From contig DIXO01000020.1 in NCBI GenBank assembly GCA_002428735.1, positions 2,554 to 66,553 of the forward strand: a DNA stretch of 64,000 nucleotides. Reading direction: 5' to 3'. Source of the stretch: Syntrophaceae bacterium UBA6078. GTDB lineage: Bacteria; Desulfobacterota; Syntrophia; Syntrophales; UBA2210. Made by a program: the position numbers and the translations under genes. This document shows positions 4,245-64,000 of the stretch, one piece after another. A model generated the notes under the pieces. That model was not told where the DNA came from. It ran no database searches and saw nothing but the letters and a program-made list of their open reading frames with translations. Within the stretch, counting starts at the first letter, position 1, and each line of letters opens with the position of its first letter.

Positions 4245-4275
4245 CCTGAAAGCTGATTTCCAACCTTTTTCCAAC
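4245..4275 (+). repeat. TTTCCAAC-containing repeat, copy 2
   Basis: CCTGAAAGCTGATTTCCAACCTTTTTCCAAC. It is preceded by a degenerate copy of the terminator tail (CCCTTCTTTAATCC). Confidence 0.5.
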
Positions 4276-13207: not shown

Positions 13208-13230
13208 GAAATCCTCCAGTCCCCACACCA

Positions 13231-13265
13231 CAAAAAACCCCGCGCGCTTCTGGAGACACGGGGTT
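13231..13265 (-). terminator. terminator-like hairpin in the hsdM leader
   Basis: On the minus strand, AACCCCG-16 nt-CGGGGTT is followed by TTTTTT and ends about 25 nt upstream of the hsdM ATG. Confidence 0.45.
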
Positions 13266-37443: not shown

Positions 37444-37506
37444 GAAAGAATCGCAAACCGGTTGTTCCCTGCGAGGAGTGGCCGGAGCTTAAAGGATAGT
37501 GTCACG

Positions 37507-38748: not shown

Positions 38749-38869
38749 GAGCAGGGGAGGGTGAAGGGATACTTCCCGTCTCCTCGCTGAGAGCTGAGAG
38801 GTATTCGTTGCCCCTGAAAGGTTCATATATTTCGTCCGGGCGGCGGAGGAAAACGGAAAGAGGAATGAT

Positions 38870-43122: not shown

Positions 43123-43150
43123 GGGCGCGGCGGTGGAGAGAGGAGGTTTC

Positions 43151-44422: not shown

Positions 44423-44445
44423 CGTGGTCAGTAGTTTGGAAAAAG

Positions 44446-45579: not shown

Positions 45580-45600
45580 AAAATAGGATAAGAGGAAATT

Positions 45601-46908: not shown

Positions 46909-46911
46909 ATC

Positions 46912-47643: not shown

Positions 47644-47647
47644 GGAA

Positions 47648-48712: not shown

Positions 48713-48715
48713 ACT

Positions 48716-49711: not shown

Positions 49712-50661
49712 TTCTTGTCACGGGTGCGGGCGGTTTTCTGGGACGTCATCTTGTTGCCCATTCGCTGGCTGCGGGGGCGGATGTGGTGCCGCTGTATCGA
49801 AGCGTGAAAATGAAGATCGAGAAACAGAGATGGGAAGCCGACCTGACAAATCCACAGCACATGCAGGGACTGAAAGAATATGTCCAGACCCCGCATACGA
49901 TTGTTCATCTTGCCGGTCGTATCGAGATTTCTCTCGTGCCGAATCCCCTGTCTGTCTCCCTGCCCCCTGTGGCCGGGTCGGAAGATATTTCATCCATCTA
50001 TTCGGCGAACGTCACTTCGACGGCACATCTCCTCCAGTATTGTCTTCAGAAGGGAGTGAAGCATCTTATATTCGCCTCTTCGCAGACGGTTTACGGCATG
50101 CCGGCCTGTGAGGTGATTACCGAAGAGACACGCTGTGAACCGCTCGAACATTATGCGGCCAGCAAACTGTGCGCAGAGCACCTGCTGGAAATCGGCGCGC
50201 GTCAGGGCCTCACCGTCACGGTGCTCCGGTTCCCCGGTCTGTACGGGGGAGATCGAAGGGAAGGGGTTGTGTATGGATTTTGCAGATCCGCTTTGGAGCG
50301 GAGGAGCATCGAGGTGAAAACGGACATTCCTCTGCCCATTGATGTCATCCATGTCAGTGATGTGGTGGACGCCATTGAAAAGGCGATATCTCTTAAGGGG
50401 CATGAGTGGCATTGCCTGAATATTGCCACCGGTGAAGCATGCAGCCTGCATATACTCGCGGATTCCATTGCGGGGCTTGTTCCGGGATGCACGGCGCATG
50501 TGTCCGGCGTACCGCAGCCGATAGTGAGGATGGATTCTTCAAAGGCGCGTTCCGTCCTGGGGTGGCGGGCTGTGTCTCGTCGCGAAAGGCTCTCAGCAAT
50601 GATAAAAAATGTAGAAAACGAGTTCAGAGCACCTGAACACAAGGAGGCATGGCATGCCTGA
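49708..50661 (+). CDS. NAD-dependent epimerase/dehydratase (extended SDR)
   Basis: ILVTGAGGFLGRHL (GxxGxxG) and YAASKLCAE (YxxxK). Confidence 0.75.
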   Translation: MILVTGAGGFLGRHLVAHSLAAGADVVPLYRSVKMKIEKQRWEADLTNPQHMQGLKEYVQTPHTIVHLAGRIEISLVPNPLSVSLPPVAGSEDISSIYSANVTSTAHLLQYCLQKGVKHLIFASSQTVYGMPACEVITEETRCEPLEHYAASKLCAEHLLEIGARQGLTVTVLRFPGLYGGDRREGVVYGFCRSALERRSIEVKTDIPLPIDVIHVSDVVDAIEKAISLKGHEWHCLNIATGEACSLHILADSIAGLVPGCTAHVSGVPQPIVRMDSSKARSVLGWRAVSRRERLSAMIKNVENEFRAPEHKEAWHA

Positions 50662-51385
50662 AAAAATAATAGAAAAGTTTCAACGCAGTGACAAGATGTA
50701 CTTATCAAAACGCCGTGATCTGGCGGAGAAACTGGAAATTCCCGAGCTCTGGAAAATTATCGACCACTTCGGCCTTTACACGGGGGTACAGACCCTCGGC
50801 CACAGCCTTGCCGTCTTTGAAATAATGAAGCGGTGCATCACCATTCCCGGGCATCTGGTCGAGTTCGGCTGCTGGAACGGGGCCAACCTGATGTTTATGG
50901 CAAAGGTGCTCCAACTGCTTCAACCCAATACCTATAAACATGTTTATGGATTCGACAGTTTTGAAGGGCTCCAGACATTTGCGGCAGAGGATGGAAATAG
51001 TCGGGGCTCTTCCGGCAAATACAGAGGCAACGAGGCGGTTCTGAGAGCCATCATTGATTTTTTTGATATGGATGAATGGGTCCATATCGTTAAAGGAAAC
51101 GCACTGGAAACCATCCCGCAGTTTGAAAAAGACAATCCCCATATCCTGTTTTCTCTCGCGTATATAGACTTTGATCTCTACGAGCCGTGCAGGGTCGCGC
51201 TCGAATACGCGGCGCAGCGGATGGCCCCCGGTGGAATCATCGTTTTTGACGAGGCGCTGACGCATTTATGGCCCGGAGAGGGGCAGGTCCTTGTGGAGTT
51301 TCTTGCTGAAAAGGGGGCCGGTGAATATGCCATGCATACTGTTCCCTTTGCGCGTCAGCCGACGGCATATCTCGTAAAGAAATGA
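50654..51385 (+). CDS. TylF/MycF-like class I SAM-dependent methyltransferase
   Basis: HLVEFGCWNGANLMFM, YGFDSFEGL and LAYIDFDLYEPCRVAL...GGIIVFDE. Confidence 0.65.
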   Translation: MPEKIIEKFQRSDKMYLSKRRDLAEKLEIPELWKIIDHFGLYTGVQTLGHSLAVFEIMKRCITIPGHLVEFGCWNGANLMFMAKVLQLLQPNTYKHVYGFDSFEGLQTFAAEDGNSRGSSGKYRGNEAVLRAIIDFFDMDEWVHIVKGNALETIPQFEKDNPHILFSLAYIDFDLYEPCRVALEYAAQRMAPGGIIVFDEALTHLWPGEGQVLVEFLAEKGAGEYAMHTVPFARQPTAYLVKK

Positions 51386-52197
51386 TTCAAGAACTTGCTG
51401 AGATTGTTTGTGATATCGGAATACTGCTCTTGAAATGGCGCGATGCCGGGATATGCGAAGGACGATGGCAAGGCACCCAGTTCAAGGCCCGCGCGGACCG
51501 CATGGCCCATCGCGCCCTCTCGGAAGAACTGATGAAGATTGCCCCCGCGATCCCCATAGTCAGTGAGGAGGATGAAGCGTCCATACAGGGGAAGCGGCCC
51601 GACTGCTACTGGCTTATTGATCCCATCGACGGTACGGCCAGCTTCGTCGGCGGTTTCCCGGGCTTTGTTACACAGGCGGCGCTGATGAAAGACGGATGCC
51701 CCTCCGTGGCCGCCATCTACGCCCCGGTCTCCGACTCGCTCTATCTAGCAGAAAGAAGAGGCGGCGCTACCCTGAACGGTCGGCCCCTTTCTCTTACCGG
51801 AGACGGGAAACCGGCAATACTGATCGACAACTACCCCGAACCACGGGGAGTGACGCGGGCCGTCTATGAAGATCTGAACTTTCGCCGATACATCGAGTGC
51901 GGGAGCATCTCTCTGAAGATATGCAGAATCGCTGATGGAACGGCTGATCTGTTCTTCAAGGACGTCATCGTGCGGGACTGGGATGTGGCCGCCCCGCAAC
52001 TGGTCCTCGAAGAAGCGGGCGGCATTCTGCGGGATTGCCGCGGCAGGAAGATACGGTTTGACGGTAATAACACGCAGTACGAGGGTCTCGTAGCGGCTTC
52101 GACCCACAGTGGGTGCCGCTCCGTCGTGTCCTGGTATGAAACCTTTCAAAGAAAGGAGCTGTGTCATGGATGTGCTGATAGTTGCCGCTCATCCTGA
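51382..52197 (+). CDS. inositol-monophosphatase/CysQ-family phosphatase
   Basis: IVSEEDE... and WLIDPIDGTASF (WxxDPxDGT metal-binding motif). Confidence 0.7.
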   Translation: MIQELAEIVCDIGILLLKWRDAGICEGRWQGTQFKARADRMAHRALSEELMKIAPAIPIVSEEDEASIQGKRPDCYWLIDPIDGTASFVGGFPGFVTQAALMKDGCPSVAAIYAPVSDSLYLAERRGGATLNGRPLSLTGDGKPAILIDNYPEPRGVTRAVYEDLNFRRYIECGSISLKICRIADGTADLFFKDVIVRDWDVAAPQLVLEEAGGILRDCRGRKIRFDGNNTQYEGLVAASTHSGCRSVVSWYETFQRKELCHGCADSCRSS

Positions 52198-52846
52198 CGA
52201 TGAAGTCCTCGGCTGCGGGGGCACTGTTGCCAGGATGGTTCGGGAAGAAAACTCGGTCTATATCGCTATCCTGGGCGAGGGGATTACCTCCCGTTATGAC
52301 GAGAGGGAACGGGCCGATCGTGGACTGGTCGACGCGCTTCACGCCCGCAGCCGGCAGGCGGCTGGACTCCTGGGCGCCTCCGAACTCTTCACACACAATC
52401 TGCCGGACAACCGCTTTGATACCGTGCCGCTGCTGGATGTCGTAAAAATTGTCGAAGGGCTGATAGAGTCGCTGAAGCCGGAGGTTATTTATACCCATCA
52501 TGGGGGTGACCTGAACATAGACCATCAGGTGGTGCACCGGGCCGTCCTGACCGCTTCGCGCCCCCTGGCCGACTGCCCCGTGAAACGGCTGTATGCCTTT
52601 GAGGTGCCTTCTTCAACGGAGTGGTCTTTCGGTCAGTTGCAGCCGGTTTTCAGACCGAACGTATTGACGGATATCAGCGCCACACTGGAAACGAAGATCG
52701 AGGCGATGGGACTGTACGGAGACGAGGCGCGCCCGTTTCCTCATCCGCGCTCGCCTGAGGCGCTGAGGGCAATCGCGCGAAAATGGGGGAGTGTTGCGGG
52801 GATGGAGGCCGCGGAGGCCTTTGAACTGATCAGGGAGGTTCGTTGA
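52166..52846 (+). CDS. PIG-L/LmbE-family N-deacetylase
   Basis: RBS AAAGGAG precedes ATG 52166. MDVLIVAAHPDDEVLGCGGT and ...HHGGDLNIDH. Confidence 0.8.
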   Translation: MDVLIVAAHPDDEVLGCGGTVARMVREENSVYIAILGEGITSRYDERERADRGLVDALHARSRQAAGLLGASELFTHNLPDNRFDTVPLLDVVKIVEGLIESLKPEVIYTHHGGDLNIDHQVVHRAVLTASRPLADCPVKRLYAFEVPSSTEWSFGQLQPVFRPNVLTDISATLETKIEAMGLYGDEARPFPHPRSPEALRAIARKWGSVAGMEAAEAFELIREVR

Positions 52847-53835
52847 TGGCGGCGAAGACGTACCGGGCGGCTCTTGTGGGTCTGGGAAACATCGCGTGGC
52901 GCTTTGATCGACAGGTGACCTGTGGATACAGTCTCACCCATGCCTCCGCTTACGAACACAACCCCGGGACCGTTCTTGCGGGTGGGTGTTCCCCCGACAG
53001 GGAGGATCGCGCCGCCTTCGAAAAAACCTGCGGGATACGGGCGGTGGACACCCTGGAGTCTTTGCTTGAGACGGCGAAGCCGGAAATCGTCAGCATCTGT
53101 TCTCCGTCGGCATTGCACTTCGAACAGGTTGCCTATTGCCTTGATCGGAAGGTTCCCATGATCTGGCTCGAAAAGCCGCCGGCATCATCAGCCGGAGAGA
53201 TTGATCGTCTCATTGAAAAGATGATGGAGAGGGGCAAAGCCAGCACGGTCCTGGTCAATTATCACAGACGGTATGATCCCCATTTCCGGCAGATGAGAGA
53301 ACTCTATCTGAAAGAGACACTGGGGACATGCCGGCTCATTCAGATAACCTACTCGAGAGGCCTGGAACTGAACGGCTCGCACATCCTGGACATGCTCTTC
53401 TTTATCGTTGGGGAAGGCGCGGGATACGAAATACAGTGGGTTTCTTCCGCCGGTGGTCTGGAGAATCCGAGTTTTGGTCTGGCTCTCGAATCCGGCGTTC
53501 AGGTCGTTGTCTCCGGAGTCACCCTGCCGTATCACTGCGTTGATATCTCGCTCACCTGCGAAGAGGGGAGGGTTTCGATCCTCCACGGGGGGATGACTCC
53601 ACTGGTGGAAGAACGGGTTGAGCATGAACTGTTTCCCGGTTTTTACCGGCTCAGAAAGAGTGAGAAGGAATATTTTGTGTCCTGCGGTCAGGCCAACGGC
53701 ATGGAGGGTGTTCTGGAAGATTTAATCCGTTCTTACGAACAGGGGGTCGCCACACAGAGCAGTCTCCAGTCCGCGAGGAAAACGCAGGAATTGATCGACA
53801 GGATCAGATCAAGCCAGAGGAAGCAGGTTTCGTGA
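52843..53835 (+). CDS. Gfo/Idh/MocA-family oxidoreductase
   Basis: N-terminal Rossmann AALVGLGNIAWRF and ...EKPPASS..., about 330 aa. Confidence 0.7.
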   Translation: MMAAKTYRAALVGLGNIAWRFDRQVTCGYSLTHASAYEHNPGTVLAGGCSPDREDRAAFEKTCGIRAVDTLESLLETAKPEIVSICSPSALHFEQVAYCLDRKVPMIWLEKPPASSAGEIDRLIEKMMERGKASTVLVNYHRRYDPHFRQMRELYLKETLGTCRLIQITYSRGLELNGSHILDMLFFIVGEGAGYEIQWVSSAGGLENPSFGLALESGVQVVVSGVTLPYHCVDISLTCEEGRVSILHGGMTPLVEERVEHELFPGFYRLRKSEKEYFVSCGQANGMEGVLEDLIRSYEQGVATQSSLQSARKTQELIDRIRSSQRKQVS

Positions 53836-54947
53836 AAGCCTTGTTTGTATCAGGAGATGTGGGGGGAGCGCGGGCATTGCTCCCCGTGATGGGTGCCTGT
53901 GAAAGACACTCCTTCCCCTTTGCCGTGTGCAGACACGGGCACATTGTAACAGAAGCGCCGGAGCGCTGGGAATGGATTCATCCGGACGGCACGGCCGATA
54001 TGAGGAATTTCTTCGCAGAAAACGGTGTCGGCGTACTGGTATTTGCAACCAGCTCGAAGGACACGACTGCTTTGACGCTGGCGCGGCGCGCCGGTGAATG
54101 TCTCATCCCCACCATCCACGTGCTCGACAACTGGACAAGCTACGCCCTCCGCATGCGAATGGACGGTCTCCCGCCCTTTGTGCCCGATGTCTATACGGTC
54201 ATCGACGATCTTTCACGGAGAGAAGCCGAAGAAGACGGCGTGGACGGGTCCGTACTGTATGTAACGGGCCAGCCGGCGCTGGCATCCCTGGCGGAGGAAT
54301 ACCGCGTGTGGCTAAACAGTGGAGTCGGGAACGTATCCCACCGGGCCGCGTCCCGTTCGGGCAAACGGGTGATGGCCTTCATATCCGAGCCCGTGACGCA
54401 CGATCAGGGGGCCACGTCCGCATCCTCCCGGTACCGGGGGTATACGGAAAAAGAGGTCCTCTCCCTCTTTTGTCAAACCATGCAGCCCTCTGCCGATAGC
54501 GTACAGATCATGGTGCTTCCCCATCCGCGGGAGGACCGGGAAGAGCTCTCCCGGCACTGGGAGTCCTCGCGGGGTGTGCTGGAGGGGGAAATCGCGTCGG
54601 TTGACCGGGGGCGGAAAGCGATCTTTGGGGCGGACGCAGTGGTCGGCATGGCCTCCCTTCTTCTGTACGAGGCATGGCTTCTTGGAAAACCGGTCATGAG
54701 CCTCCAGCCCGGGCTGCGGGTCAAACCGCTCCGGATGCTCGCACGCAGGGAAGGGGTCTTGTTCATAGATACCTATGAAAACACGGCCGACAGGGTAAAG
54801 AAATGGATTTCATCGATACGGTTCGGCGCGCGCCATTCCCCGTTGCCGGAATTGCGGTTGCATGAAAAAGCGCCTGAGGACGTGTTCAGACTGATTGAAC
54901 GATATGCAAAACAAAAGAAAACCCACAGAATGAGGAGCCAATCATGA
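53832..54947 (+). CDS. hypothetical protein, possibly GT-B fold (glycosyltransferase/epimerase-like)
   Basis: 371 aa with alternating beta-alpha character in two halves (MKALFVSGDVGG..., VMAFISEP...). There is no definitive motif. It overlaps both neighbouring genes by 4 nt. Confidence 0.5.
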   Translation: MKALFVSGDVGGARALLPVMGACERHSFPFAVCRHGHIVTEAPERWEWIHPDGTADMRNFFAENGVGVLVFATSSKDTTALTLARRAGECLIPTIHVLDNWTSYALRMRMDGLPPFVPDVYTVIDDLSRREAEEDGVDGSVLYVTGQPALASLAEEYRVWLNSGVGNVSHRAASRSGKRVMAFISEPVTHDQGATSASSRYRGYTEKEVLSLFCQTMQPSADSVQIMVLPHPREDREELSRHWESSRGVLEGEIASVDRGRKAIFGADAVVGMASLLLYEAWLLGKPVMSLQPGLRVKPLRMLARREGVLFIDTYENTADRVKKWISSIRFGARHSPLPELRLHEKAPEDVFRLIERYAKQKKTHRMRSQS

Positions 54948-55660
54948 ATGTAGCTGTTATCCCCGCCAGGGGCGGATCCAAGCGGGTGCCGAACAAGAAC
55001 ATGAAATTGTTCGCGGGAAAGCCCATCATCGCCTATTCCATTGAGGCGGCACATGAGTCCGGGGTGTTTGACAGGATTATCGTCTCCACCGATTCCGGGG
55101 AGATCGCCCGCGTGGCCCGCGAATGCGGGGCTGAAACGCCGTTCCTGCGCCCGGCGGAGCTGTCGGGCGATTTTACCCCCACCGCGCCGGTGCTGCTGCA
55201 CGCCCTGGAATGGCTTCGCGAAAACGGGTTCAATCCGGCATACCTTTGCTGTATCTACGCCACCGCGCCCTTCATCCGGCCGGAATATATCAGGCAGGGT
55301 CTTGAGCTGGTCATGGGGGATGGGGTGACATCCGCCTTTTCCGTCACCACCTTTCCCTTTCCCATCTTCAGGGCGCTCCGGATCACGGAAAGCGGCGCCG
55401 TCACGATGTACTGGCCGGAGTATGAGATGGCGCGATCCAATGATCTGGAGGAAGCGTACCATGACGCGGGTCAGTTCTACTGGCTCGACTGTCCCCTGTT
55501 CCAAAAGGAACAGAAGTTGTACGGCAGTCATTCCATGCCGGTTATTCTCCCCCGCTATCTCGTCCAGGATATCGACACGCCCGAGGACTGGGAAACCGCG
55601 GAGAGGATGTTCGCGGCAATGAATGGAAACGGCCAACCATGCGACGGGAGAAGCGCATAA
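54944..55660 (+). CDS. pseF: pseudaminic acid cytidylyltransferase (CMP-Pse synthetase)
   Basis: VAVIPARGGSKRVPNKNMKLFAGKPIIAYSIEAA is the CMP-NeuAc-synthase-family N-terminus. Confidence 0.8.
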   Translation: MNVAVIPARGGSKRVPNKNMKLFAGKPIIAYSIEAAHESGVFDRIIVSTDSGEIARVARECGAETPFLRPAELSGDFTPTAPVLLHALEWLRENGFNPAYLCCIYATAPFIRPEYIRQGLELVMGDGVTSAFSVTTFPFPIFRALRITESGAVTMYWPEYEMARSNDLEEAYHDAGQFYWLDCPLFQKEQKLYGSHSMPVILPRYLVQDIDTPEDWETAERMFAAMNGNGQPCDGRSA

Positions 55661-56220
55661 TGGCGACATCGCCCGATATACGGACGCCCCGTCTGCTGAT
55701 CACGGCCTTCAGCGAACGGTATCTGAGCCCGCGCTACGTCGGGTGGCTCAATAATCCCGATGTGACGCGCTTCAGCGAACAACGCCACAGAACGCATACC
55801 ATGGAATCATGCAGGGCCTACCTCGAATCGTTTGCGCATACGCCGAACTATTTCTGGGCCCTCCTGGAGACCGGCCGCGATTTTCTGCATATCGGCAACG
55901 TCAATGCCTATGTCGATTCCGCAAACGGGACTGCCGATGCAGGTATTCTCATAGGCGAGATGAGCGTGTGGGGGAAAGGCTACGCGGTGGAGGCCTTCGA
56001 GGCTGTGATCGGTTACCTGATTGAAGAGCGGGGGATTCGAAAGGTCACGGCCGGGACGCTCCTGGCGAACGCCCGGATGGTGAAGGTGATGGAGAAAGCG
56101 GGAATGATCGAAGACGGGATCAGAAAACGCCAGTACCTGTGGAACGGCACGGAAGCGGACGCGATCCACATGGCTGTCTTCAGGAATCAATGGGCCGGAA
56201 AAAGTAACAAATTAAAATAG
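55660..56220 (+). CDS. pseH: GNAT N-acetyltransferase (PseH-like)
   Basis: ATG 55660 overlaps the pseF stop by 1 nt. TPRLLITAFSERYLSPRYVGWLNNPDV and ...WGKGYAVEAF... (RimL/PseH-type GNAT). Confidence 0.65.
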   Translation: MATSPDIRTPRLLITAFSERYLSPRYVGWLNNPDVTRFSEQRHRTHTMESCRAYLESFAHTPNYFWALLETGRDFLHIGNVNAYVDSANGTADAGILIGEMSVWGKGYAVEAFEAVIGYLIEERGIRKVTAGTLLANARMVKVMEKAGMIEDGIRKRQYLWNGTEADAIHMAVFRNQWAGKSNKLK

Positions 56221-56303: not shown

Positions 56304-58748
56304 ATGAATAAACCTCTTCAGGAAATGCTTTCCATCTGTATCGTTGGAGATGTCGCTTCCCCCGGTATGGCGGAGTGCGTTGCGGGGGCTCAGGCACTAA
56401 CGGACAGGATTTTCTTTTTAAATCCTGACGGAAGCACGGGTAATGAACCGGGCGGATCGGAAGACGGCCCCATTCCCGTAGACAGAAAGTCTCTCCCCTC
56501 CGCCATAGAAACCGAATGGGTACTGTTTCTCACGGGAGACGACGTCATAGGGGTTTCATCCCCTGAAGAACTCCGCCGGACCCTGAGCGATACCGGGCCC
56601 CGGGGATATCTTGTCTGCGTGAAAGACGGAACGGTCACGGATTCTCTCCGGGAATTCCCGTTTATCGGCAATCTCGGTCAATTTGAAACAATGGGCAATC
56701 AGGCCTTCGTGACACGGCTTGAATGGAGACTGGCCGGAAAGGACAGGGCCGGCGATTGCCTGGATACGCTCCTTGGTGACGCCGGGGAGGAACGTTTCCC
56801 TATCACTATCACTCATATAGCCGGCGGGTTTCACCTGTTCAGAGGGATGCGGGAAATACCGCCAGTTCGGGAAGAGGATGGCGATCATGACATGCGCCAC
56901 CTCAAGGGTGAGATCTATTACGGACCGTTTCCCGGTGAAGGTCTGGACGAGTTGAGCAGCGCGTACATAGGATTCAGGGTATTGCACGAGCGGTATCTCG
57001 AGAGCTTCCTGGAAAGCGCCGACCATGGATTCGGCATAGACGGCATGTATCTGCCCATGATCGATCACCTCTGCAGGAAAGGGAATTTTGATGGTGCGCG
57101 ATCCCTTTTCGAGAGGTGGCTGAAAAATCGCACGGGCGATGAAACGGTGGGGCTGTGCAGGGTCGGGGGCTTTGTGTACAGCCATCTCCTCATGCTGGAC
57201 GAGGCGATCGCCTGGTACGGGAAATCGAACGATCTGTCCGCCGATCCCTCCATTACGGCGCTCCTGGGGGAACTGTACCTCATCAAAGGCGACCGGGAAC
57301 AATCGAGACAGCTTCTCAGGCAATCGATTGCGGTAAAGCCGAGCGAGTTTCATGAGCGGTTGCTTGCCACTATCGCCTCCGAAGAATGGAAACCATCCAC
57401 CCTGAGCCTCTGCATGATAGCGCGGGACGAGGAAAAAACGATCGGCACGGCCCTCGATTCCGTATCAGGTATTGTTGATGAAATCGTTGTCCTGGATACA
57501 GGGTCATCGGACCGGACAGGGGAGATTGCCGGCGCCTACGGCGCGCGGGTGATCGAATCACACTGGCAGGATGATTTTTCAGCCGCGAGAAACGAGGCCC
57601 TGCGCGAAGCGAGGGGAGATTACATCCTGTTTCTCGACGCCGATGAATACATCGATCCCGGCGACCGGCTGGGGCTGGCTCTGTTGAAACAGCTTCTTCC
57701 GCAGGACCGCGATACCGTTTACCGGGTCACGGTGAAAGCGGACGAGAAGCTGCAGGAATTGTCGGTGTCGCTCCTGAATAATCTCATGAAGGAGCAGTAT
57801 GTGTCACACCAGGTAAGAGTGTTTCCGCGGACGGACAGGCTCTTCTTTGCAGGCCCCGCCTTTGAGTCTCTGGATTCTTCCCTGGGGAACACAGGCATGA
57901 AGGTGAAAGACGCGTCGTTGTTTCACATCATTCATGGAAGAGAAAACGGGGCATTCAGAGACGAAAGGATGGTCCCCGCCGTCAGAAAAAGCCTCGGTTC
58001 CGCTGTGGCTTCCCCGGCCTTTCTGAAAGGAGGGCTGTTTTTTCTGAAACGGGGCGATCTCGACCAGGCCTATCCGTGGTTTCAAAACGCCAGGCACATG
58101 GAACCCCATTTCGCGGTCAAAATCGCGAAGCTCTACACAAGCCAGCACCGGTATGAATATGCCGAATCAATCATACAAAAAGCCCTGAATCAATTTCCTG
58201 ATTCCCTTGAGCTTGTTGTGGCGCTGGCGGAGGTATACTTCAAGGATGAACGGTATGCCGATGTCAACGCCCTCCTGCGAGAGAGAATCGATCCGGATGA
58301 TACGAATGCAGTGAATCTCGAATCAATTGCAGACGCCTTCTACCACAACGGCATCTCGCTCCTGGAGACGGGGGAGATTGCCGAAGGAATCCCCTGTATC
58401 GCCGCTGCGCTGGAAAAAGACCCTCTGGATGCGCGATACCGGATCGCCGGCCTCTACGCCCTTGCCAGATCGGAACAATGGGATCAGTTCCTCGATGCGG
58501 CCGAACAGATCGTGGGCCAGGAAGGTATAGAGATAGATTTTGAAATCAGAGACTTTGCCGATATCGGCCGCCTTGTTTTCAAGGTGCTCCAGCGTCTTGC
58601 CGGAGACAAAAGGGAGGATGCGGTATGGATCTGCAGGAAGATGCTCACCTATCTGATTCGGACAAAGATCGCTGAAAAAGGGGAAATCGACAGGATGCAA
58701 CGGATCATGGAAGAAACGGATCGGATGATTTCCTGTATGGGGACATAA
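56304..58748 (+). CDS. large TPR- and GT2-domain glycosyltransferase
   Basis: A central GT2 domain (LSLCMIARDEEKTIGTALDSV...VVLDTGSSDRT...ILFLDADEYI) is flanked by TPR-like helical repeats. The N-terminal ~100 aa (LSICIVGD...) look like a degenerate second GT2 start. Confidence 0.75.
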   Translation: MNKPLQEMLSICIVGDVASPGMAECVAGAQALTDRIFFLNPDGSTGNEPGGSEDGPIPVDRKSLPSAIETEWVLFLTGDDVIGVSSPEELRRTLSDTGPRGYLVCVKDGTVTDSLREFPFIGNLGQFETMGNQAFVTRLEWRLAGKDRAGDCLDTLLGDAGEERFPITITHIAGGFHLFRGMREIPPVREEDGDHDMRHLKGEIYYGPFPGEGLDELSSAYIGFRVLHERYLESFLESADHGFGIDGMYLPMIDHLCRKGNFDGARSLFERWLKNRTGDETVGLCRVGGFVYSHLLMLDEAIAWYGKSNDLSADPSITALLGELYLIKGDREQSRQLLRQSIAVKPSEFHERLLATIASEEWKPSTLSLCMIARDEEKTIGTALDSVSGIVDEIVVLDTGSSDRTGEIAGAYGARVIESHWQDDFSAARNEALREARGDYILFLDADEYIDPGDRLGLALLKQLLPQDRDTVYRVTVKADEKLQELSVSLLNNLMKEQYVSHQVRVFPRTDRLFFAGPAFESLDSSLGNTGMKVKDASLFHIIHGRENGAFRDERMVPAVRKSLGSAVASPAFLKGGLFFLKRGDLDQAYPWFQNARHMEPHFAVKIAKLYTSQHRYEYAESIIQKALNQFPDSLELVVALAEVYFKDERYADVNALLRERIDPDDTNAVNLESIADAFYHNGISLLETGEIAEGIPCIAAALEKDPLDARYRIAGLYALARSEQWDQFLDAAEQIVGQEGIEIDFEIRDFADIGRLVFKVLQRLAGDKREDAVWICRKMLTYLIRTKIAEKGEIDRMQRIMEETDRMISCMGT

Positions 58749-58752
58749 CGCG

Positions 58753-60666
58753 ATGAACAGAAAAGATATCTTCGAAAAGAATCTCTCGGCCCTCGCTGAG
58801 AGAAACCCGCGACTGGCCGGAAAAGTCCGGGACGCGCGAGGAAACGGCCATGGTCATCTGCTCGAGGGGAAGGAGGGGTGCCCGCCCAATCTGCTCGTGG
58901 AACATGACGGTGCGCGTATTCTTTTTTATGACGCGGAGGATCCTCTTCGATATTCCCGCGAGTATCTGGAAGGATTGAACGTCAAATACGCCCCCTTTGT
59001 TTTCTTCATGGGGTTCGGACTCGGGTACCATCTGGAGCAGTTCGCGACGCGGTTCAGCAATGAATGGGGGACGAAGGAGATCGTCATTTACGAAAAGGAG
59101 ATCGAGTTGTTCCGGCTTGCTCTGCACGTGGGCGACTATGGAACCGTTCTCAGGCATCCCCATATCCATTTCTTTGTGGGGGATGATCCGGAAGACAGCC
59201 ATGTCCTGCTCTCTTCCGATATCCTGATACGGGACCGTTACGCCCTTCGCTCCATCAAGGTCATTCCCCTGCCCCCAAGCGTCAGCCTCCATAGATCGTA
59301 CTATCTCAAGGCCGCCCGGACCATAAAAAAGGCGGCCGTTACTGTCATGGTAAACGTGGGCAATGATTCCTTTGACTCCCTGGTCGGGTTGGAACATACC
59401 TTTGCAAATATACAACATATCTTTTCCAATCCCGGCATCAACAGCCTGTACGGAAAATTCAAAGGGAAACCGGGCGTCCTGGTGGCTGCCGGCCCCTCTC
59501 TCAAGAAAAACGTGCATCTCCTGAAAGGACTGGAAGACAGGGCCCTCATCATGAGTTGCGACGCGACACTCCTGCCCCTGATGAAAAAAGGGATTCAGCC
59601 CCACCTGGTGACCTCTCTTGAGCGGTCGCCCGAGGTTCTTCTCCACTACGCGAAAATTCACGATTTCAAGAATACCTATGCGGTCACCCTCCCCATCCAG
59701 ACGCCTGAATCGGTGGAGGCCTTCACGGGAAGGAAGTTCATTGCCTACCGGAAATATTCTTATTTCGACTGGTTCGAGAAGGATAAGGGCTCCCTGGTGG
59801 TCGGGCATTCCGTGGCCAATCTTGCCTTCAAGATACTGATGCACCTTGCATGCGATCCGATCATACTGATCGGACAGGATCTGGCCTATGCCCGTGAGGG
59901 GGATTCCCACATCGGCGGGGTTGTGGGCAGAAACCGTGACAATATCTTTGAATATGAGTCCGTCGAACTGGAGGGCAATGACGGCAGGCCCGTCAAGTCA
60001 ATGAAATACTGGGAGCTCTTCAAGCTGGAGTATGAGGAGGATATCCATTCCTACGACGGAACCTGCGTCAATGCCACCGAGGGGGGCGCAAAGATAAGAG
60101 GCGCCAAAATAATGACATTCGCGGACGCCATTGGTACCTATTGCCGGCAGTCATACAACCCTCAGGCAATACTTGATGAAACCTACCATCAGTTTGCGAT
60201 CGAGTCCGATATACAGAAAGAGATGGATGAAATCCTTGTCAAGGCCGTCGATACCCGGGAAACCGTTGAACGGGCAATCCGTGATTTCGAGACGGCGCTG
60301 AAAGAGGCGCGGCTGGTGGAAGAGGAGGTTATCCGCCCGTCCCTGGAGGGAGCGCCCTGTTCCGATGAAGGGAAGGAACGTCTCCTGTCCATTGAGAAAA
60401 AATGGCTTACCCTGGGCGCATCCCTTCAAGGTCACAAAAATCTGTACGCGATTACGGCGCAGACCCTTCAGGCCTATGATCTGTGGCTGGCCAGCGAGCT
60501 GTCCTTCCTCAAGGACATCTACACAAACAGCACCTTCTTATCCATGGCGCGGGTCAGAAAGATGACGGACTGGTTCGCCGTTATCGGGAGTCTCCTTGTC
60601 TTCACCAGGAACGTCCTCGGCGATGCCGCGATAACGCTGAAGAGAGGGACGGAGGCGGTTCAATAG
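58753..60666 (+). CDS. maf: motility-associated factor (Maf) flagellin glycosyltransferase (DUF115/MptE-like)
   Basis: PGVLVAAGPSLKKNV...IMSCDATLLPLMKKGIQPHLVTSLER... and GHSVANLAF...LIGQDLAY match the MAF_flag10 core. Confidence 0.8.
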   Translation: MNRKDIFEKNLSALAERNPRLAGKVRDARGNGHGHLLEGKEGCPPNLLVEHDGARILFYDAEDPLRYSREYLEGLNVKYAPFVFFMGFGLGYHLEQFATRFSNEWGTKEIVIYEKEIELFRLALHVGDYGTVLRHPHIHFFVGDDPEDSHVLLSSDILIRDRYALRSIKVIPLPPSVSLHRSYYLKAARTIKKAAVTVMVNVGNDSFDSLVGLEHTFANIQHIFSNPGINSLYGKFKGKPGVLVAAGPSLKKNVHLLKGLEDRALIMSCDATLLPLMKKGIQPHLVTSLERSPEVLLHYAKIHDFKNTYAVTLPIQTPESVEAFTGRKFIAYRKYSYFDWFEKDKGSLVVGHSVANLAFKILMHLACDPIILIGQDLAYAREGDSHIGGVVGRNRDNIFEYESVELEGNDGRPVKSMKYWELFKLEYEEDIHSYDGTCVNATEGGAKIRGAKIMTFADAIGTYCRQSYNPQAILDETYHQFAIESDIQKEMDEILVKAVDTRETVERAIRDFETALKEARLVEEEVIRPSLEGAPCSDEGKERLLSIEKKWLTLGASLQGHKNLYAITAQTLQAYDLWLASELSFLKDIYTNSTFLSMARVRKMTDWFAVIGSLLVFTRNVLGDAAITLKRGTEAVQ

Positions 60667-60717: not shown

Positions 60718-61344
60718 ATGAATGAAGCGGACCACATCTATGAGGAAAATATGCAGGTTCTTACGGCGAGGTGGCCTCTCCTTGCGGACAGAGTCCGAGG
60801 GCACAGGGCTGAATTGTCGTGGGAAATGTTTCCCGCCCGCAACGGACAGGTAACGGCGCGGAAGGTCCTGGAAGAAGGCCTCGTCAGACACATCCACAGC
60901 CGGTATGATCCGGAAAAGGCGGCCCTTCGATGGGCCGGTCTCGCTCCTCGAGACGCTGATACACTGGCGGTTCTCGGATTCGGCCTCGGGTATCACGCCG
61001 TGGCCGTAAGAAGAATGCATCATGACGGTCCCCTCGTTATCATCGAAGCGGACCGGGGGCTGTTTCACCTCGCCCTGCGATCGGTTCCCCTGACATCCCT
61101 CCTGAACGATCCGCGCACCCATCTCTTCGTTCAAGAGAGCAGCGACAGCATCGAGGAATTTCTGGATGATCTGAATCCCGGTTCGCTCGGGTATCTCCCC
61201 TATTTCCCCGTAACCGATCTCTATCCGGAATACTACGGGCCTGTCCGGGACCTCCTGGAAAAGCGGATCTTCGAATGCCGCCTGCGGGACGAACCGGCTC
61301 TCGGCCGGGAGATCGGAGAACTGCTCCAGGAGACCATAGGGTGA
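60718..61344 (+). CDS. stand-alone Maf N-terminal-domain paralog
   Basis: Colinear with residues 1-~190 of the Maf at 58753 (I(F/Y)E(K/E)N..L..R.P.LA..VR; GFGLGYH; (V/I)I(Y/I)E....LF.LAL; P..H(F/L)FV). It lacks the DUF115 catalytic part. Confidence 0.7.
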   Translation: MNEADHIYEENMQVLTARWPLLADRVRGHRAELSWEMFPARNGQVTARKVLEEGLVRHIHSRYDPEKAALRWAGLAPRDADTLAVLGFGLGYHAVAVRRMHHDGPLVIIEADRGLFHLALRSVPLTSLLNDPRTHLFVQESSDSIEEFLDDLNPGSLGYLPYFPVTDLYPEYYGPVRDLLEKRIFECRLRDEPALGREIGELLQETIG

Positions 61345-61357
61345 GGCTCAAGAGGAC

Positions 61358-62893
61358 ATGAACATACTGGTCATACGCACCCACCGGTTAGGGGATATCC
61401 TGCAACTCACCCCCATGATCGGGGGGCTGAAAAGGAGCTATCCCGACAGTACGATCTACTTTCTGACCGGGAAGGATTATGCGCCGCTGCTCGAAGGAAA
61501 TCCAGCCGTCGACGCCATCATCCCCTTCCCCGAGAAGGAGTATCGATACGCGCTGAAGAACGAACCGGACGGGTATCCCTCCCTGTTCAACGCATGCCAT
61601 GACCTGATCGGTGAACTGAGGCGGATACGATTCGATCTGATCGTCAACCGTCAGTACGAATGGGGGGCGCGTTTCGCTTCCCTTGCGGGCGCTTCTCGCA
61701 TAGCAGGCGGCGCATATTCCCCGGAAAGAGGGTTCTATTTCGACGATCAGCCGTCGCAGGATCTTGTTGATGCGATCAAGGGTGATCGGAAAAAAAACAG
61801 ACGGAACCTCGTTGACTGGGCCTGCCGGATAGCCGGACTGCCTCCGGAAGGTCACACACGGATGTATCTGCCTCTTGGTCCTTTGGACCGCAGGGAAGCC
61901 CAGCGGCTTATCAACGACTCTCGCTCCGACAGCACACGCCCCATCGTCGCTGTTCAGGCGGGCGCGGCCAGAACCTTCCGTCAATGGGGGGCGGATAATT
62001 TTGCGGAAGTGATCGACCGGCTGATCCATGAGAAAGGGAGGAGGGTGGTTCTCATGGGAAGCGAGGACGAACGGGATCTGTTCACCGGCCGGGGGATCGG
62101 TATCGGCGGGGAGGAACGGAATCTCATCAATCTCATGGGGGAAACCTCCCTGAAGACGACGGGGGCCGTCCTCGAGCGGTGCGAGGTCCTCATCACCGGG
62201 GACACGGGCCCCATGCACATGGCGGCCGCCGTGGGCACCCCCGTTCTCTCCCTCTTTTTCGGGACCGCCTATCCCTGGGAGACCGGTCCCTACGGATACG
62301 GCCATTTCATCCTCTATGCCGATCTTCCCTGCGCCCCCTGTTTCGATCCCTCCCGGTGCGAACGGGGCCATCTCTGCAAGGGTATGATCACTCCTTCGGT
62401 TGTCATGGCGGCCTTCGAGACATTCGACGCCTTCCGGCGTGGCGACCCCGTCGGCTGGGAATGCCCCGATCCGTCCGTGAGACTCTTTGTGACGTCCCGC
62501 GACACCGGGGGGGAGCAGGTTCTTGTCCCCCCGGAACAGCTCGCGGGCGGCATGCCGGAGCGCGGGCTGTGTATTGATGATGGCCCTGACGGAGAATATC
62601 TTCCGGCGATTCTCCGCGCCCGGGGGGAGGAGATCATCCGCTCTTTTATGGAGGGGGAGAGCGAAAGGGGCTTCACGGACTTTGCCGCATACCTGGAAGA
62701 GTGGCTTGCCCTGAGAAAAACCGCCCCGTCCCTCGGGGACGAAGGACTCAAATCGACGGGGGAACTCATCAACGCCTGTCTGGAGGCGCTGCGAAGCAGG
62801 GACACGGTGGCCCTCATAGACGCCATCGAGTACGGATTCAACCCGCGGCTCGAACAATCTTCCCACAAATCTTTTAACGCAAATCACCTCTAA
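61358..62893 (+). CDS. glycosyltransferase family 9 (heptosyltransferase-like), paralog 3, with a ~150-aa C-terminal extension
   Basis: MNILVIRTHRLGDILQLTPMIGGLK, VAVQAGAARTFRQW, ITGDTGPMHMAAAVGTPVLSLFFGT and LPCAPC....C. Confidence 0.8.
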   Translation: MNILVIRTHRLGDILQLTPMIGGLKRSYPDSTIYFLTGKDYAPLLEGNPAVDAIIPFPEKEYRYALKNEPDGYPSLFNACHDLIGELRRIRFDLIVNRQYEWGARFASLAGASRIAGGAYSPERGFYFDDQPSQDLVDAIKGDRKKNRRNLVDWACRIAGLPPEGHTRMYLPLGPLDRREAQRLINDSRSDSTRPIVAVQAGAARTFRQWGADNFAEVIDRLIHEKGRRVVLMGSEDERDLFTGRGIGIGGEERNLINLMGETSLKTTGAVLERCEVLITGDTGPMHMAAAVGTPVLSLFFGTAYPWETGPYGYGHFILYADLPCAPCFDPSRCERGHLCKGMITPSVVMAAFETFDAFRRGDPVGWECPDPSVRLFVTSRDTGGEQVLVPPEQLAGGMPERGLCIDDGPDGEYLPAILRARGEEIIRSFMEGESERGFTDFAAYLEEWLALRKTAPSLGDEGLKSTGELINACLEALRSRDTVALIDAIEYGFNPRLEQSSHKSFNANHL

Positions 62894-63085: not shown

Positions 63086-64000
63086 ATGGGTTTCAGAATT
63101 CAGAATAACGTAGCGGCAATGAACGCGCATCGCTGGCTTTCCACCAATGACGCGTCGATGAACAAATCATTGGAACGACTTTCATCCGGTTACCGGATCA
63201 ACAGGGCGGCTGATGATGCCGCCGGTCTTGCTATTTCATCCAACTTCAGGGCGAATATAGCCAGTTTCAAGGTCGCTTCCCGGAATACCTCGGAGGCGGG
63301 CGCCCTTCTGCAGGTTGCTGAAGGCGGTATGGAACAGATCGAAAACATGCTCGTCCGGCTCAAAGAGCTGGCAACCCAGGCCGCGTCGGCCAACGTGGGT
63401 TCCACCGAGCGGGCGAAGATCAATTCGGAGGGGAACGCGCTCATCTCGGAAATCGACCGGATCGCCAACTCCACCAAGTATGGAAGCACGACACTGCTTG
63501 ACGGGACCTTTGGTTCCTCGAAAGCGGGCACCGTGGGAGTCGGAAGCGAAGACGGGATGATCGGCAGCACGAATAACGCCTACACGGTTGCAGGCGGTAC
63601 GGATGTGATGTCCGCGGCGACCGTTGTTGCCATCGGCAGCGGCATGGCGGAAGCGACCACATGGTACTTCGGCGTCAATTCGGAGGGCGATACCCTCTAT
63701 CTCGCGAACGCCGCGACCTATTCACAGTCGACGCTGATAGAGAGCTACACGGGGACGATCAATGCCGCCAACAGCGCGGTGGCCTTCGAAAACCTCGGTA
63801 TGACCATCGCGATTACCGGCACTGTAACGGGGATTGCCAATACCAACTCGGACAACGAGTGCACATTCGACAGTTCCGTGACCCTGAAGCGGACGGGCCT
63901 CACCTCTCTTGTCGTTGAAGGCGCCGCCACGGGTACGTACACCTTCTCCGTTGGTGCTGCGAACACGCTGACCCTGAGCGACGGCACCACGACGGAGACT
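63086..64000 (+). CDS. fliC: flagellin, 3'-truncated by the window edge
   Basis: RBS AAGGAGG at 63071-63077 and ATG 63086. MGFRIQNNVAAMNAHRWL...LERLSSGYRINRAADDAAGLAIS...LQVAEGG...LVRLKELATQAA is the canonical flagellin N-domain. 305 codons are open to the window end (not in the ORF track because there is no stop). Confidence 0.9.
   Translation, partial: MGFRIQNNVAAMNAHRWLSTNDASMNKSLERLSSGYRINRAADDAAGLAISSNFRANIASFKVASRNTSEAGALLQVAEGGMEQIENMLVRLKELATQAASANVGSTERAKINSEGNALISEIDRIANSTKYGSTTLLDGTFGSSKAGTVGVGSEDGMIGSTNNAYTVAGGTDVMSAATVVAIGSGMAEATTWYFGVNSEGDTLYLANAATYSQSTLIESYTGTINAANSAVAFENLGMTIAITGTVTGIANTNSDNECTFDSSVTLKRTGLTSLVVEGAATGTYTFSVGAANTLTLSDGTTTET

What the first reader, a model, noticed from the sequence alone, without database searches (positions are those of the whole stretch)
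60718..62893. Possible split or recombined flagellin glycosyltransferase: stand-alone Maf N-domain followed by a GT9 enzyme
The 208-aa ORF is colinear with the N-terminal ~190 residues of the neighbouring full-length Maf (shared blocks include GFGLGYH and (V/I)I(Y/I)E....LF.LAL) but stops before the DUF115 catalytic domain. A GT9 heptosyltransferase-like gene with a ~150-aa C-terminal extension starts 13 nt downstream, and the flagellin gene follows immediately. If the Maf N-domain mediates flagellin or substrate recognition, this pair would be a Maf-like system whose catalytic module has been replaced by a GT-B/GT9 enzyme. I am not aware of this arrangement being described for flagellin glycosylation.
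Basis: inference. Interest (0 to 1): 0.65.

Follow-up and report, generated by a model that had tools for sequence, protein, structure and literature searches.

The report
Stand-alone Maf N-domain paired with GT9
A small protein that is only the N-terminal domain of the flagellin-glycosylating enzyme Maf is a conserved, selected gene joined to an unusual GT9 glycosyltransferase in flagellar sugar-modification loci, which suggests an undescribed two-protein flagellin glycosylation module and offers a way to study this domain of unknown function alone.

Summary
ORF 60718-61344 (208 aa) is colinear with residues 1-184 of the neighbouring Maf (29% identity, E 5e-12) and ends before the catalytic MptE-like/DUF115 domain. 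Its model best matches the Maf crystal structure 5mu5. A 511-aa GT9 enzyme starts 13 nt downstream. Flagellin follows after 193 nt, not immediately.

The ORF is not a pseudogene. About 35 clusters of 200-225-aa stand-alone homologues exist, and dN/dS is 0.21-0.46. In 20 of 22 related loci (Syntrophales, one Nitrospirota) it lies directly upstream of the GT9 orthologue, with a 13-nt gap or an ATGA overlap.

In Binatia, Bdellovibrionota, Myxococcales and Desulfarculia, a sister GT9 subfamily lies after fliS. In 57 of 67 loci it follows a fusion of the Maf N-domain to a different GT-B enzyme (DUF3880/Glyco_trans_1_2).

The Maf N-domain is therefore a portable module of flagellar glycosyltransferases, here probably supplied in trans to the GT9.

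The "recent split or recombination" reading fails: the ORF is about 20% identical to both fused classes. Published work places flagellin binding in C-terminal TPR domains or the adaptor GlfM, not this domain. No Maf-N/GT9 fusion was found. All functional claims are inference from sequence and gene context.

The parts
60718..61344 (+). Stand-alone Maf N-domain protein (MafN-only), 208 aa. It has a Rossmann-like alpha/beta fold with a conserved G87-x-G89-x-G91-Y-H motif and E110.
   Evidence: ORF. 29% identity to Maf residues 1-184. PF20157 at 22.8 bits. Model pLDDT 90.6 with best PDB match 5mu5. Homologues of 200-225 aa. dN/dS 0.21-0.46.
61345..61357 (+). 13-nt junction between the MafN-only stop codon (TGA) and the GT9c ATG. 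It holds a purine-rich AGAGGA that could be a ribosome-binding site.
   Evidence: Sequence. The same 13-nt spacing occurs in L001-L006. Spacing is -4 (ATGA overlap) in L010, L011, L013, L014, L016, L017 and L018, with a near-identical overlap in L087. No promoter- or terminator-like site lies between the genes beyond chance.
61358..62437 (+). GT9c catalytic GT-B core (residues 1-360). It keeps the GD13 motif, R208/W210, E238 and D282-T-G.
   Evidence: PF01075, E 1.7e-27. PDB profile hits to 3tov, WaaF and WaaC. Foldseek hits to 3tov (E 5e-20), WaaF, WaaC and TibC. Invariant columns in alignment A1.
62330..62377 (+). Cys4 cluster C325-x2-C328-x5-C334-x5-C340, a probable metal site.
   Evidence: Invariant in 29 homologues. 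Also present in 15 of 23 short GT9 hits, so it is not diagnostic of a protein substrate.
62438..62893 (+). GT9c C-terminal extension (residues 361-511): a beta-hairpin at 374-390 and four helices at 411-508. D482 and D488 are invariant.
   Evidence: Model. Alignment A1. Precomputed PF26154/DUF8042 hits on many homologues. No significant hhalign match to the Maf C-domain or to DUF8042-like ORFs.
58753..60666 (+). Full-length Maf (Maf_flag10_N + MptE-like/DUF115 + C-terminal domain), 637 aa.
   Evidence: Pfam. Conserved upstream of MafN-only in most close loci.
56304..58748 (+). TPR-GT2-TPR glycosyltransferase, 814 aa.
   Evidence: Pfam. Conserved upstream of Maf.
63087..64000 (+). Flagellin gene (5' part; it runs off the window).
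   Evidence: Sequence and translation. Flagellin, fliD and fliS lie downstream of GT9c in related loci.
38870..39922 (+). Stand-alone DUF3880 + Glyco_trans_1_2 GT-B enzyme, 350 aa. This is the catalytic module that is fused to Maf-N in other phyla.
   Evidence: Pfam. phmmer matches to the C-terminal part of the Maf-N/GT-B fusions, E 1e-50 to 1e-64.
39912..41564 (+). GT9b, a paralogue of GT9c with a Cys4 cluster and a long C-terminal extension. It overlaps the preceding GT-B gene by 11 nt.
   Evidence: Pfam. BLASTP 29% identity to GT9c and 52% to L014 3153-4832. GTG start after GGGAGGG.
41755..56220 (+). Pseudaminic-acid-type nonulosonic acid biosynthesis and tailoring genes. They include PseB-like, two aminotransferases, PseG-like, a formyltransferase, PseI, an ATP-grasp enzyme, a CMP-sugar synthetase and a GNAT.
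   Evidence: NCBIfam and Pfam.

Best explanation
The 208-aa ORF and the 511-aa GT9 enzyme form one conserved functional module of a flagellin glycosylation island in a Syntrophales-type bacterium.

GT9c is the catalytic subunit. It is a GT-B enzyme that keeps the heptosyltransferase-type catalytic residues, and it carries its own C-terminal beta-hairpin plus four-helix extension.

MafN-only is a non-catalytic accessory subunit. It supplies in trans the Rossmann-like Maf N-domain that other flagellar glycosyltransferases carry in cis at their N-terminus (Maf, Maf-N/GT-B fusions, Maf-N/GT2 fusions).

Together they most likely add a sugar to flagellin, or to the pseudaminic-acid-type glycan already placed on it by Maf. 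This would happen in the cytoplasm before export. The donor is unknown; ADP-heptose is the default for GT9.

What is shown: gene structure, fold, conservation, purifying selection, junction geometry and co-occurrence.

What is inferred: physical association of the two proteins, flagellin or its glycan as acceptor, and what the Maf N-domain contributes. Two candidates for that contribution are docking or oligomerisation, and binding of a small nucleotide-like ligand through the conserved GxGxG-Y-H plus Glu site.
For: - Conservation: 14 clusters at 52-100% identity, nearly all 208 aa. Further stand-alone homologues reach down to about 30% identity. The top ~35 of 6840 relatives are 200-225 aa.
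- Selection: dN/dS is 0.21-0.46 with dS up to 1.6.
- Synteny: MafN-only lies directly upstream of the GT9c orthologue in 18 of 20 loci, plus L088 and L089. The gap is a fixed 13 nt or an ATGA overlap.
- MafN-only follows GT9c rather than Maf. L015, L018, L019 and L089 have the pair with no Maf detected in the DNA held for the locus, and L007 has none adjacent.
- Flagellar context: flagellin, fliD and fliS lie 1-3 kb downstream in most long loci.
- Sister GT9 subfamily: it lies directly downstream of a Maf-N + DUF3880 + Glyco_trans_1_2 fusion in 57 of 67 loci. In the two Binatia loci whose called genes were listed, the order is fliC-flaG-fliD-fliS-hyp-[fusion]-[GT9].
- The Maf N-domain is fused to at least three unrelated catalytic folds.
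- GT9c keeps the GD motif, the DTGPMH motif, and R208 and E238 aligned to 3tov and WaaF. It folds as GT9.
- Precedent for accessory or adaptor architecture in flagellin glycosyltransferases: GlfM with Maf-2, and the TPR domains of FlmG and Maf-1 (PMC7591256; bioRxiv 10.1101/2023.12.03.569772).
Against: - There is no direct evidence of a complex, and no multimer prediction was possible.
- No Maf-N/GT9 fusion appears among the 10 long proteins (of the best 150 relatives) whose domains were scanned.
- L008 has the GT9c orthologue with a sulfotransferase-like ORF where MafN-only should be. L009 has a 274-aa ORF inserted between the two genes.
- Published data give no flagellin-binding role to the Maf N-region.
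- Tandem MafN-MafN-Maf proteins such as P0174 suggest that extra Maf-N copies may serve Maf rather than GT9.
- Adjacency and coupling are also expected for enzymes that simply act in sequence.
- The donor and acceptor of GT9c are unknown.
Confidence: 0.5

Rival explanations
1. MafN-only serves the classical Maf rather than GT9c. It would act as an extra N-domain in trans that pairs with or regulates Maf, for example by hetero-oligomerising through the N-domains. Its position next to GT9c would then reflect operon order only.
For: Maf is directly upstream in the window and in most close loci. Natural Maf proteins with tandem MafN-MafN exist (P0174; also P0188, P0189 and P0195).
Against: The MafN-only/GT9c pair occurs without an adjacent Maf in L007, L015, L018, L019 and L089. 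In L087 it is separated from Maf by four genes. The start-stop coupling is with GT9c, not Maf. The sister GT9 subfamily is also always next to a Maf-N-bearing gene, in loci where no MptE-like Maf was detected apart from L061.
Confidence: 0.15
2. The two genes encode independent enzymes or factors that act one after the other on the flagellin glycan, without forming a complex. MafN-only would be a small ligand-binding or residual methyltransferase-like protein in its own right.
For: The MafN-only model resembles spermidine synthases and class I methyltransferases after 5mu5. GxGxG-Y-H and the acidic residue at the end of beta-2 are nearly invariant across about 96 Maf-N domains of three classes. 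Bdellovibrionota fusions carry a true SAM-methyltransferase domain next to Maf-N.
Against: The fold has only four parallel strands and lacks the catalytic half of methyltransferases (PMC11339370). The tight, phylum-spanning linkage of Maf-N with GT9-ext genes is more than a shared pathway would require.
Confidence: 0.15
3. GT9c is an LPS-core heptosyltransferase that happens to lie in the island and has no effect on flagellin. This is the refuting case the first reader named.
For: The best sequence and structure matches are LPS heptosyltransferases. The Cys4 motif is shared with short LPS-type GT9 proteins.
Against: GT9c and its sister subfamilies carry a 150-200-aa extension that WaaC and WaaF lack. 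Flagellar genes or a Maf-N-bearing partner lie beside them in most loci across several phyla, and no LPS-core genes were noticed there.
Confidence: 0.05
4. The 208-aa ORF is a decaying fragment of a duplicated maf gene, that is, a pseudogene.
For: It covers only the N-terminal third of Maf and sits next to a maf gene.
Against: Length is conserved at about 200-225 aa in homologues down to roughly 30% identity. dN/dS is 0.21-0.46. The model is confident and compact. Identity to Maf N-domains is only about 20%, so it is not a recent copy. No DUF115 remnant is possible in a 13-nt gap.
Confidence: 0.02

Closest known systems
Maf (motility-associated factor) flagellin nonulosonic-acid glycosyltransferases, e.g. 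M. magneticum Maf (PDB 5mu5)
   Same: The 208-aa protein has the same N-terminal degenerate Rossmann-like domain (PF20157), the GFGLGYH and IIE motifs, and a place in a pseudaminic-acid flagellin glycosylation island.
   Different: It has no MAF_flag10/DUF115 catalytic domain and no C-terminal helical domain. It is a separate lineage, about 20% identical to Maf N-domains, and is coupled to a GT9 gene.
GlfM with Maf-2, a three-part flagellin glycosylation system (Shewanella oneidensis; bioRxiv 10.1101/2023.12.03.569772)
   Same: A small accessory protein encoded next to a flagellin glycosyltransferase, in both cases conserved as a gene pair.
   Different: GlfM is an 89-residue four-helix bundle with FliS/FliT-like features. 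MafN-only is a 208-residue alpha/beta Rossmann-like protein, and its partner is a GT-B/GT9 enzyme rather than a Maf. If anything resembles GlfM here, it is the four-helix C-terminal extension of GT9c, and no sequence homology was detected for that.
FlmG (Caulobacter crescentus; PMC7591256)
   Same: Modular logic: a non-catalytic N-terminal module joined to a GT-B catalytic domain acting on flagellin. The Maf-N + DUF3880/Glyco_trans_1_2 fusions found next to the sister GT9 genes have the same two-part layout.
   Different: The FlmG module is a TPR domain shown to bind flagellin. Here the module is Maf-N, whose function is unknown, and in the window it is a separate polypeptide.
GT9 LPS heptosyltransferases WaaC and WaaF, and the V. 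parvula GT9 structure 3tov
   Same: GT-B fold, PF01075, conserved N-terminal GD and C-lobe D(T/S)G..MH motifs, and a Cys4 cluster shared with many short GT9 proteins.
   Different: GT9c has an extra ~150-aa beta-hairpin plus four-helix C-terminal extension, a flagellar gene context, and an obligate Maf-N-bearing neighbour.
TibC/AAH bacterial autotransporter heptosyltransferases (BAHT; PMC4358343)
   Same: A heptosyltransferase-like GT-B fold acting on a protein, which shows that GT9-like enzymes can O-glycosylate Ser residues. Cys4 metal finger. Foldseek E about 4e-9.
   Different: GT9c has no N-terminal beta-barrel and no autotransporter neighbour. No TibC match appeared in the profile search even at E 10. 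The Cys4 cluster is not specific to protein-directed enzymes.

Membership tests
Maf flagellin glycosyltransferase | Central MAF_flag10 / DUF115 (PF01973, MptE-like) catalytic domain | tested here: not met
   The 208-aa ORF hits only PF20157. It ends at the position matching Maf residue ~184, before the MptE-like domain (Maf residues 215-381). The next gene starts 13 nt later.
Maf flagellin glycosylation | N-terminal Maf_flag10_N domain (degenerate Rossmann-like fold) | tested here: met
   PF20157 at E 7e-5 (22.8 bits, just below the 23.5-bit gathering score). The family profile hits Maf N-termini at E 1e-19 to 1e-25. The model's best PDB match is 5mu5.
Maf flagellin glycosyltransferase | Encoded in a flagellar or nonulosonic-acid glycosylation island | tested here: met
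   PseB/C/G/I/F/H-like genes lie upstream and flagellin lies downstream. The same holds in related loci.
Glycosyltransferase family 9 (heptosyltransferase-like) | GT-B fold matching PF01075 and solved GT9 structures | tested here: met
   PF01075, E 1.7e-27. Profile against PDB: 3tov E 6e-30, WaaF E 1.5e-21. Foldseek: 3tov E 5e-20, TMt 0.79.
Glycosyltransferase family 9 (heptosyltransferase-like) | Conserved catalytic and donor-binding motifs (N-terminal GD; K/R-W after beta-1 of the C-lobe; acidic residue; D-(T/S)-G-x-M-H) | tested here: met
   G12-D13, R208-W210, E238 and D282-T283-G284-H287 are invariant or nearly so in 29 homologues. They align with the matching motifs of 3tov and WaaF. The residue roles come from prior knowledge of WaaC and WaaF.
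Glycosyltransferase family 9 (heptosyltransferase-like) | ADP-heptose donor and LPS inner-core acceptor | not testable with these tools
   No heptose pathway genes were recognised among the operon proteins scanned. The flagellar context argues against an LPS acceptor.
BAHT (TibC/AAH) protein heptosyltransferases | N-terminal beta-barrel, beta-hairpin thumb and iron-finger insertions; autotransporter substrate encoded nearby | tested here: not met
   The model starts directly with the Rossmann beta-1 and has no barrel. No autotransporter gene was seen among the neighbouring genes examined. TibC was found only by fold, at E ~4e-9, not by sequence even at E 10. The Cys4 cluster is also present in short LPS-type GT9 proteins.
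GlfM-type flagellin glycosylation adaptor | Four-helix bundle of about 90 residues that bridges the glycosyltransferase and flagellin | tested here: not met
   MafN-only is a 208-residue alpha/beta protein with four parallel strands. Its bridging function could not be tested.

The most novel reading that the evidence does not exclude
The Maf N-domain is a portable module that commits glycosyltransferases of unrelated folds to the flagellin pathway. Known partners are the GT-A-like Maf, the CgeB-like GT-B, GT2 and, in trans, GT9. It may do this through a conserved nucleotide-like ligand site (GxGxG-Y-H plus Glu). On this reading, the long GT9 enzymes found after fliS or before fliC in at least six phyla are a new, widespread class of cytoplasmic flagellin or flagellin-glycan glycosyltransferases. 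MafN-only/GT9c would be their naturally split three-part form.
Probability: 0.3. Interest if true: 0.8.

Novelty: new variant of a known kind. Interest (0 to 1): 0.6.

Why it matters
The function of the Maf N-terminal domain is an acknowledged unknown (PMC11339370). How cytoplasmic flagellin glycosyltransferases pick their acceptor is only now being worked out (FlmG TPR, Maf-1 TPR, GlfM).

A naturally stand-alone, selected Maf N-domain allows direct tests that cannot be done inside a full Maf. These include binding partners, ligand binding by the GxGxG/Glu site, and its requirement for a defined glycan step.

The survey also points to GT9-type enzymes with a C-terminal helical extension as a candidate third class of flagellar glycosyltransferases. 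They are widespread in uncultivated Syntrophales, Binatia, Bdellovibrionota and others. None of the full-text searches run here returned a paper on them.

Tried and rejected
1. The Cys4 cluster as evidence for a protein substrate, by analogy with the TibC iron finger. Rejected: the same CxxC...C...C motif is present in 15 of 23 short GT9 hits, including an annotated LPS heptosyltransferase.
2. Homology of the GT9c C-terminal extension to the Maf C-domain, to the DUF8042-like ORF downstream of the sister GT9 genes, or to the extensions of GT9b and the sister subfamily. hhalign probabilities were 0.3-13%, which is not significant.
3. A Maf-N/GT9 fusion protein as evidence for a physical link. 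None was found among the 10 long proteins (of the best 150 profile hits) whose domains were scanned. Those long hits are Maf with tandem Maf-N, Maf-N + GT-B, or Maf-N + methyltransferase + GT2.
4. A recent duplication of the neighbouring maf gene. Rejected on identity: 22-27% to Maf N-domains, with the three classes equidistant.
5. Promoter and terminator scan between the genes. Nothing above the shuffled expectation.
6. A sequence-level link to TibC. None at E up to 10.
7. Literature searches for DUF3880 + flagell*, GT9 + flagellin, and Maf + heptosyltransferase. No relevant paper.
8. Whether the FlmG GT-B domain belongs to PF13524.
9. Multimer structure prediction. Not available with these tools.
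Full report
**1. Observation**

A full-length Maf lies at 58753-60666 (637 aa). It carries Maf_flag10_N at residues 78-149 and MptE-like/DUF115 at residues 215-381. A 208-aa ORF follows at 60718-61344. After exactly 13 nt comes a 511-aa GT9 gene at 61358-62893.

BLASTP aligns the 208-aa protein from its first residue to Maf residues 1-184, at 29% identity and E 5e-12. The blocks LGFGLGYH and (V/I)I(I/Y)E....LF.LAL are included. Its only Pfam hit is Maf_flag10_N, at 22.8 bits against a 23.5-bit gathering score.

A model built on 26 homologues is confident (pLDDT 90.6). It shows a helical hairpin, a small beta-meander, four parallel beta-alpha units and two long C-terminal helices. The best PDB match is the Maf crystal structure 5mu5 (E 3e-6), followed by spermidine synthases and class I methyltransferases. 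This agrees with the published description of the Maf N-domain as a degenerate Rossmann-like fold with weak methyltransferase-like motifs and unknown function (PMC11339370).

The flagellin gene begins at 63087, 193 nt after the GT9 stop codon, and runs off the window. So it does not follow immediately.

**2. The 208-aa ORF is a gene, not a fragment**

- The first protein search found 14 clusters at 52-100% identity, almost all 208 aa.
- A profile search added stand-alone homologues of 204-221 aa down to about 30% identity.
- A profile scan of 1.84 billion representatives gave 6840 relatives. The best ~35 are nearly all 200-225 aa.
- Pairwise dN/dS among seven orthologues is 0.21-0.46, with dS up to 1.6.
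- The stand-alone proteins, Maf N-domains and the N-domains of Maf-N/GT-B fusions are about equidistant, at roughly 20% identity between classes. The ORF is therefore an old lineage, not a recent piece of the neighbouring maf gene.

**3. The pair is conserved**

Contigs that carry homologues all show TPR-GT2 / Maf / MafN-only / GT9 with the same 13-nt gap. A scan of one genome per species with the GT9 profile returned 80 loci.

In 18 of the 20 loci holding a close GT9c orthologue, a ~200-aa Maf-N ORF lies directly upstream. These loci come from Syntrophales or "Deltaproteobacteria" MAGs and one Nitrospirota. The gap is 13 nt, 7-16 nt, or a 4-nt ATGA overlap. Two very divergent MafN-only proteins (P0148 and P0151, about 30% identity) also precede a ~510-aa GT9.

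There are two exceptions. In L008 a sulfotransferase-like ORF takes the place of MafN-only. In L009 a 274-aa ORF is inserted between the two genes.

The pair occurs without an adjacent Maf in L007, L015, L018, L019 and L089, and four genes away from Maf in L087. MafN-only therefore follows GT9c, not Maf. Flagellin, fliD and fliS lie 1-3 kb downstream in most long loci. No promoter- or terminator-like signal above chance separates the genes in the window.

**4. The wider pattern**

A sister GT9 subfamily is 31-35% identical over residues 2-349, about 550 aa long, and also carries a long C-terminal extension. It occurs in Binatia, Bdellovibrionota, Myxococcales, Desulfarculia, Dadabacteria and KSB1.

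In 57 of 67 such loci the gene directly upstream is a fusion of Maf_flag10_N + DUF3880 + Glyco_trans_1_2, a GT-B enzyme. In many of the Bdellovibrionota loci this fusion has an extra N-terminal SAM-methyltransferase domain. The gene order in Binatia is fliC-flaG-fliD-fliS-hyp-[MafN-GT-B]-[GT9]-[DUF8042-like].

Other relatives fuse Maf-N to GT2 plus methyltransferases, or carry two Maf-N copies ahead of a Maf.

Across about 96 Maf-N domains of all three classes, these residues are nearly invariant: N11, L15, G43, P65, G87-x-G89-x-G91-Y92-H93, E110 and A119. They correspond to methyltransferase motif I and the acidic residue at the end of beta-2, which suggests a conserved ligand site. That is an inference.

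The window itself holds a second coupled pair at the head of the same 27-kb operon. It consists of a stand-alone DUF3880/Glyco_trans_1_2 gene (38870-39922) overlapping by 11 nt a paralogous long GT9 (GT9b, 39912-41564). A TPR protein and a third GT9 precede it.

**5. The GT9 enzyme**

The profile of 29 homologues matches solved GT9 structures over residues 1-318: 3tov at E 6e-30, then WaaF and WaaC. The model (pLDDT 82.8) matches 3tov, WaaF and WaaC, and then the protein heptosyltransferase TibC at E ~4e-9.

The motifs G12-D13, R208-W210, E238 and D282-T-G-x-x-H287 are invariant and align with the GT9 catalytic and donor-binding motifs. The enzyme therefore looks active.

The invariant Cys4 cluster (C325, C328, C334, C340) recalled the TibC iron finger (PMC4358343). 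However, the same motif is in 15 of 23 short GT9 hits, including an annotated LPS heptosyltransferase. It says nothing about the acceptor.

The C-terminal extension (beta-hairpin 374-390, four helices 411-508, invariant D482 and D488) has no significant profile match to the Maf C-domain or to DUF8042-like ORFs. Precomputed Pfam assigns DUF8042 to many homologues. Helical modules bind flagellin in Maf-1 and FlmG, and the four-helix GlfM bridges Maf-2 to flagellin. The extension is therefore a reasonable candidate for acceptor recognition, but this is inference only.

**6. Interpretation**

The best-supported reading (confidence 0.5) is a two-protein module. GT9c is the catalyst. MafN-only supplies in trans the N-terminal module that other flagellar glycosyltransferases carry in cis. 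The module acts on flagellin, or on the pseudaminic-acid-type glycan that Maf installs.

The rivals are:
- MafN-only serves Maf (0.15).
- The two act independently in sequence, with MafN-only as a ligand-binding protein (0.15).
- GT9c acts on LPS (0.05).
- The ORF is a pseudogene (0.02).

Modularity of Maf-N and its linkage to GT9 are real. The following are not supported:
- A recent split or recombination.
- Replacement of a catalytic module, since Maf is still present.
- A flagellin-binding role for Maf-N.

**7. Novelty**

Full-text searches found nothing on GT9 or DUF3880 enzymes in flagellin glycosylation, nor on a stand-alone Maf N-domain. The system fits the known logic of modular or adaptor-assisted flagellin glycosyltransferases, but with new parts. 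I rate it a new variant of a known kind, with interest 0.6.

All functional statements are computational inference. Section "decisive next steps" lists the experiments that would settle them.

Noticed in passing
window 36202-41564 (+): A second coupled glycosyltransferase set lies at the head of the operon. It runs GT9a (36202-37443), a TPR protein (37462-38748), a stand-alone DUF3880 + Glyco_trans_1_2 GT-B (38870-39922), and GT9b (GTG at 39912, to 41564). GT9b has a Cys4 cluster and a long C-terminal extension and overlaps the GT-B gene by 11 nt. The same GT-B/GT9b pair is in L014 at 2164-4832. A TPR protein next to a GT-B enzyme resembles a split FlmG, but this was not tested.
   Followed up: partly
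L020-L086, e.g. L086 8169-12176 and L085 8019-12173: A module of [Maf-N + DUF3880 + Glyco_trans_1_2 fusion] - [~550-aa GT9] lies close downstream of fliS in Binatia, Bdellovibrionota and other loci. It is absent from the papers the searches returned. A ~190-aa DUF8042-like ORF follows the GT9 in the Binatia and a few other loci. In many of the Bdellovibrionota loci the fusion has an extra N-terminal SAM-methyltransferase domain (~930 aa).
   Followed up: partly
window 60976-60996 and 61045-61047 (MafN-only G87-H93 and E110); same columns in Maf 58753-60666: G-x-G-x-G-Y-H plus a Glu at the end of the next strand is nearly invariant across about 96 Maf N-domains of three architectures that share only about 20% identity. 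This suggests a conserved nucleotide- or SAM-like ligand site in a domain usually called degenerate.
   Followed up: partly
window 41755-43122 (+): The PseB-like dehydratase (Polysacc_synt_2, residues 96-366) carries an N-terminal MerR-type HTH domain (PF13411, residues 11-80). This is an unusual fusion of a DNA-binding domain to a sugar-nucleotide enzyme.
   Followed up: no
window 62330-62377; P0109-P0133: The CxxC...C...C cluster after the D(T/S)G motif is common in GT9 proteins. It occurs in short LPS-type heptosyltransferases such as the Geotalea daltonii protein P0114. It is therefore a general feature of this GT9 branch, not a mark of the flagellar enzymes.
   Followed up: yes
L008 8231-9631; L009 9091-9915: L008 has a 466-aa sulfotransferase-like ORF exactly where MafN-only lies in the other loci. 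L009 has a 274-aa ORF of unknown function inserted between MafN-only and GT9.
   Followed up: partly
P0174 (L090 237-2615); also P0188, P0189, P0195: These are Maf proteins with two tandem Maf N-domains ahead of the MptE-like domain, each about 27% identical to the window's MafN-only. This hints that Maf N-domains may work in pairs.
   Followed up: partly
window 4636-13276 (-) and 17421-18590 (-): A type I restriction-modification system (HsdR, HsdS and HsdM) and a phage-type integrase lie upstream of the flagellar glycosylation island.
   Followed up: no
window 47429-48712 (+): The PseI ORF as listed is 427 aa, but the PseI model matches only residues 91-417, and the ORF overlaps the preceding formyltransferase gene. 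The real start is probably about 90 codons downstream.
   Followed up: no
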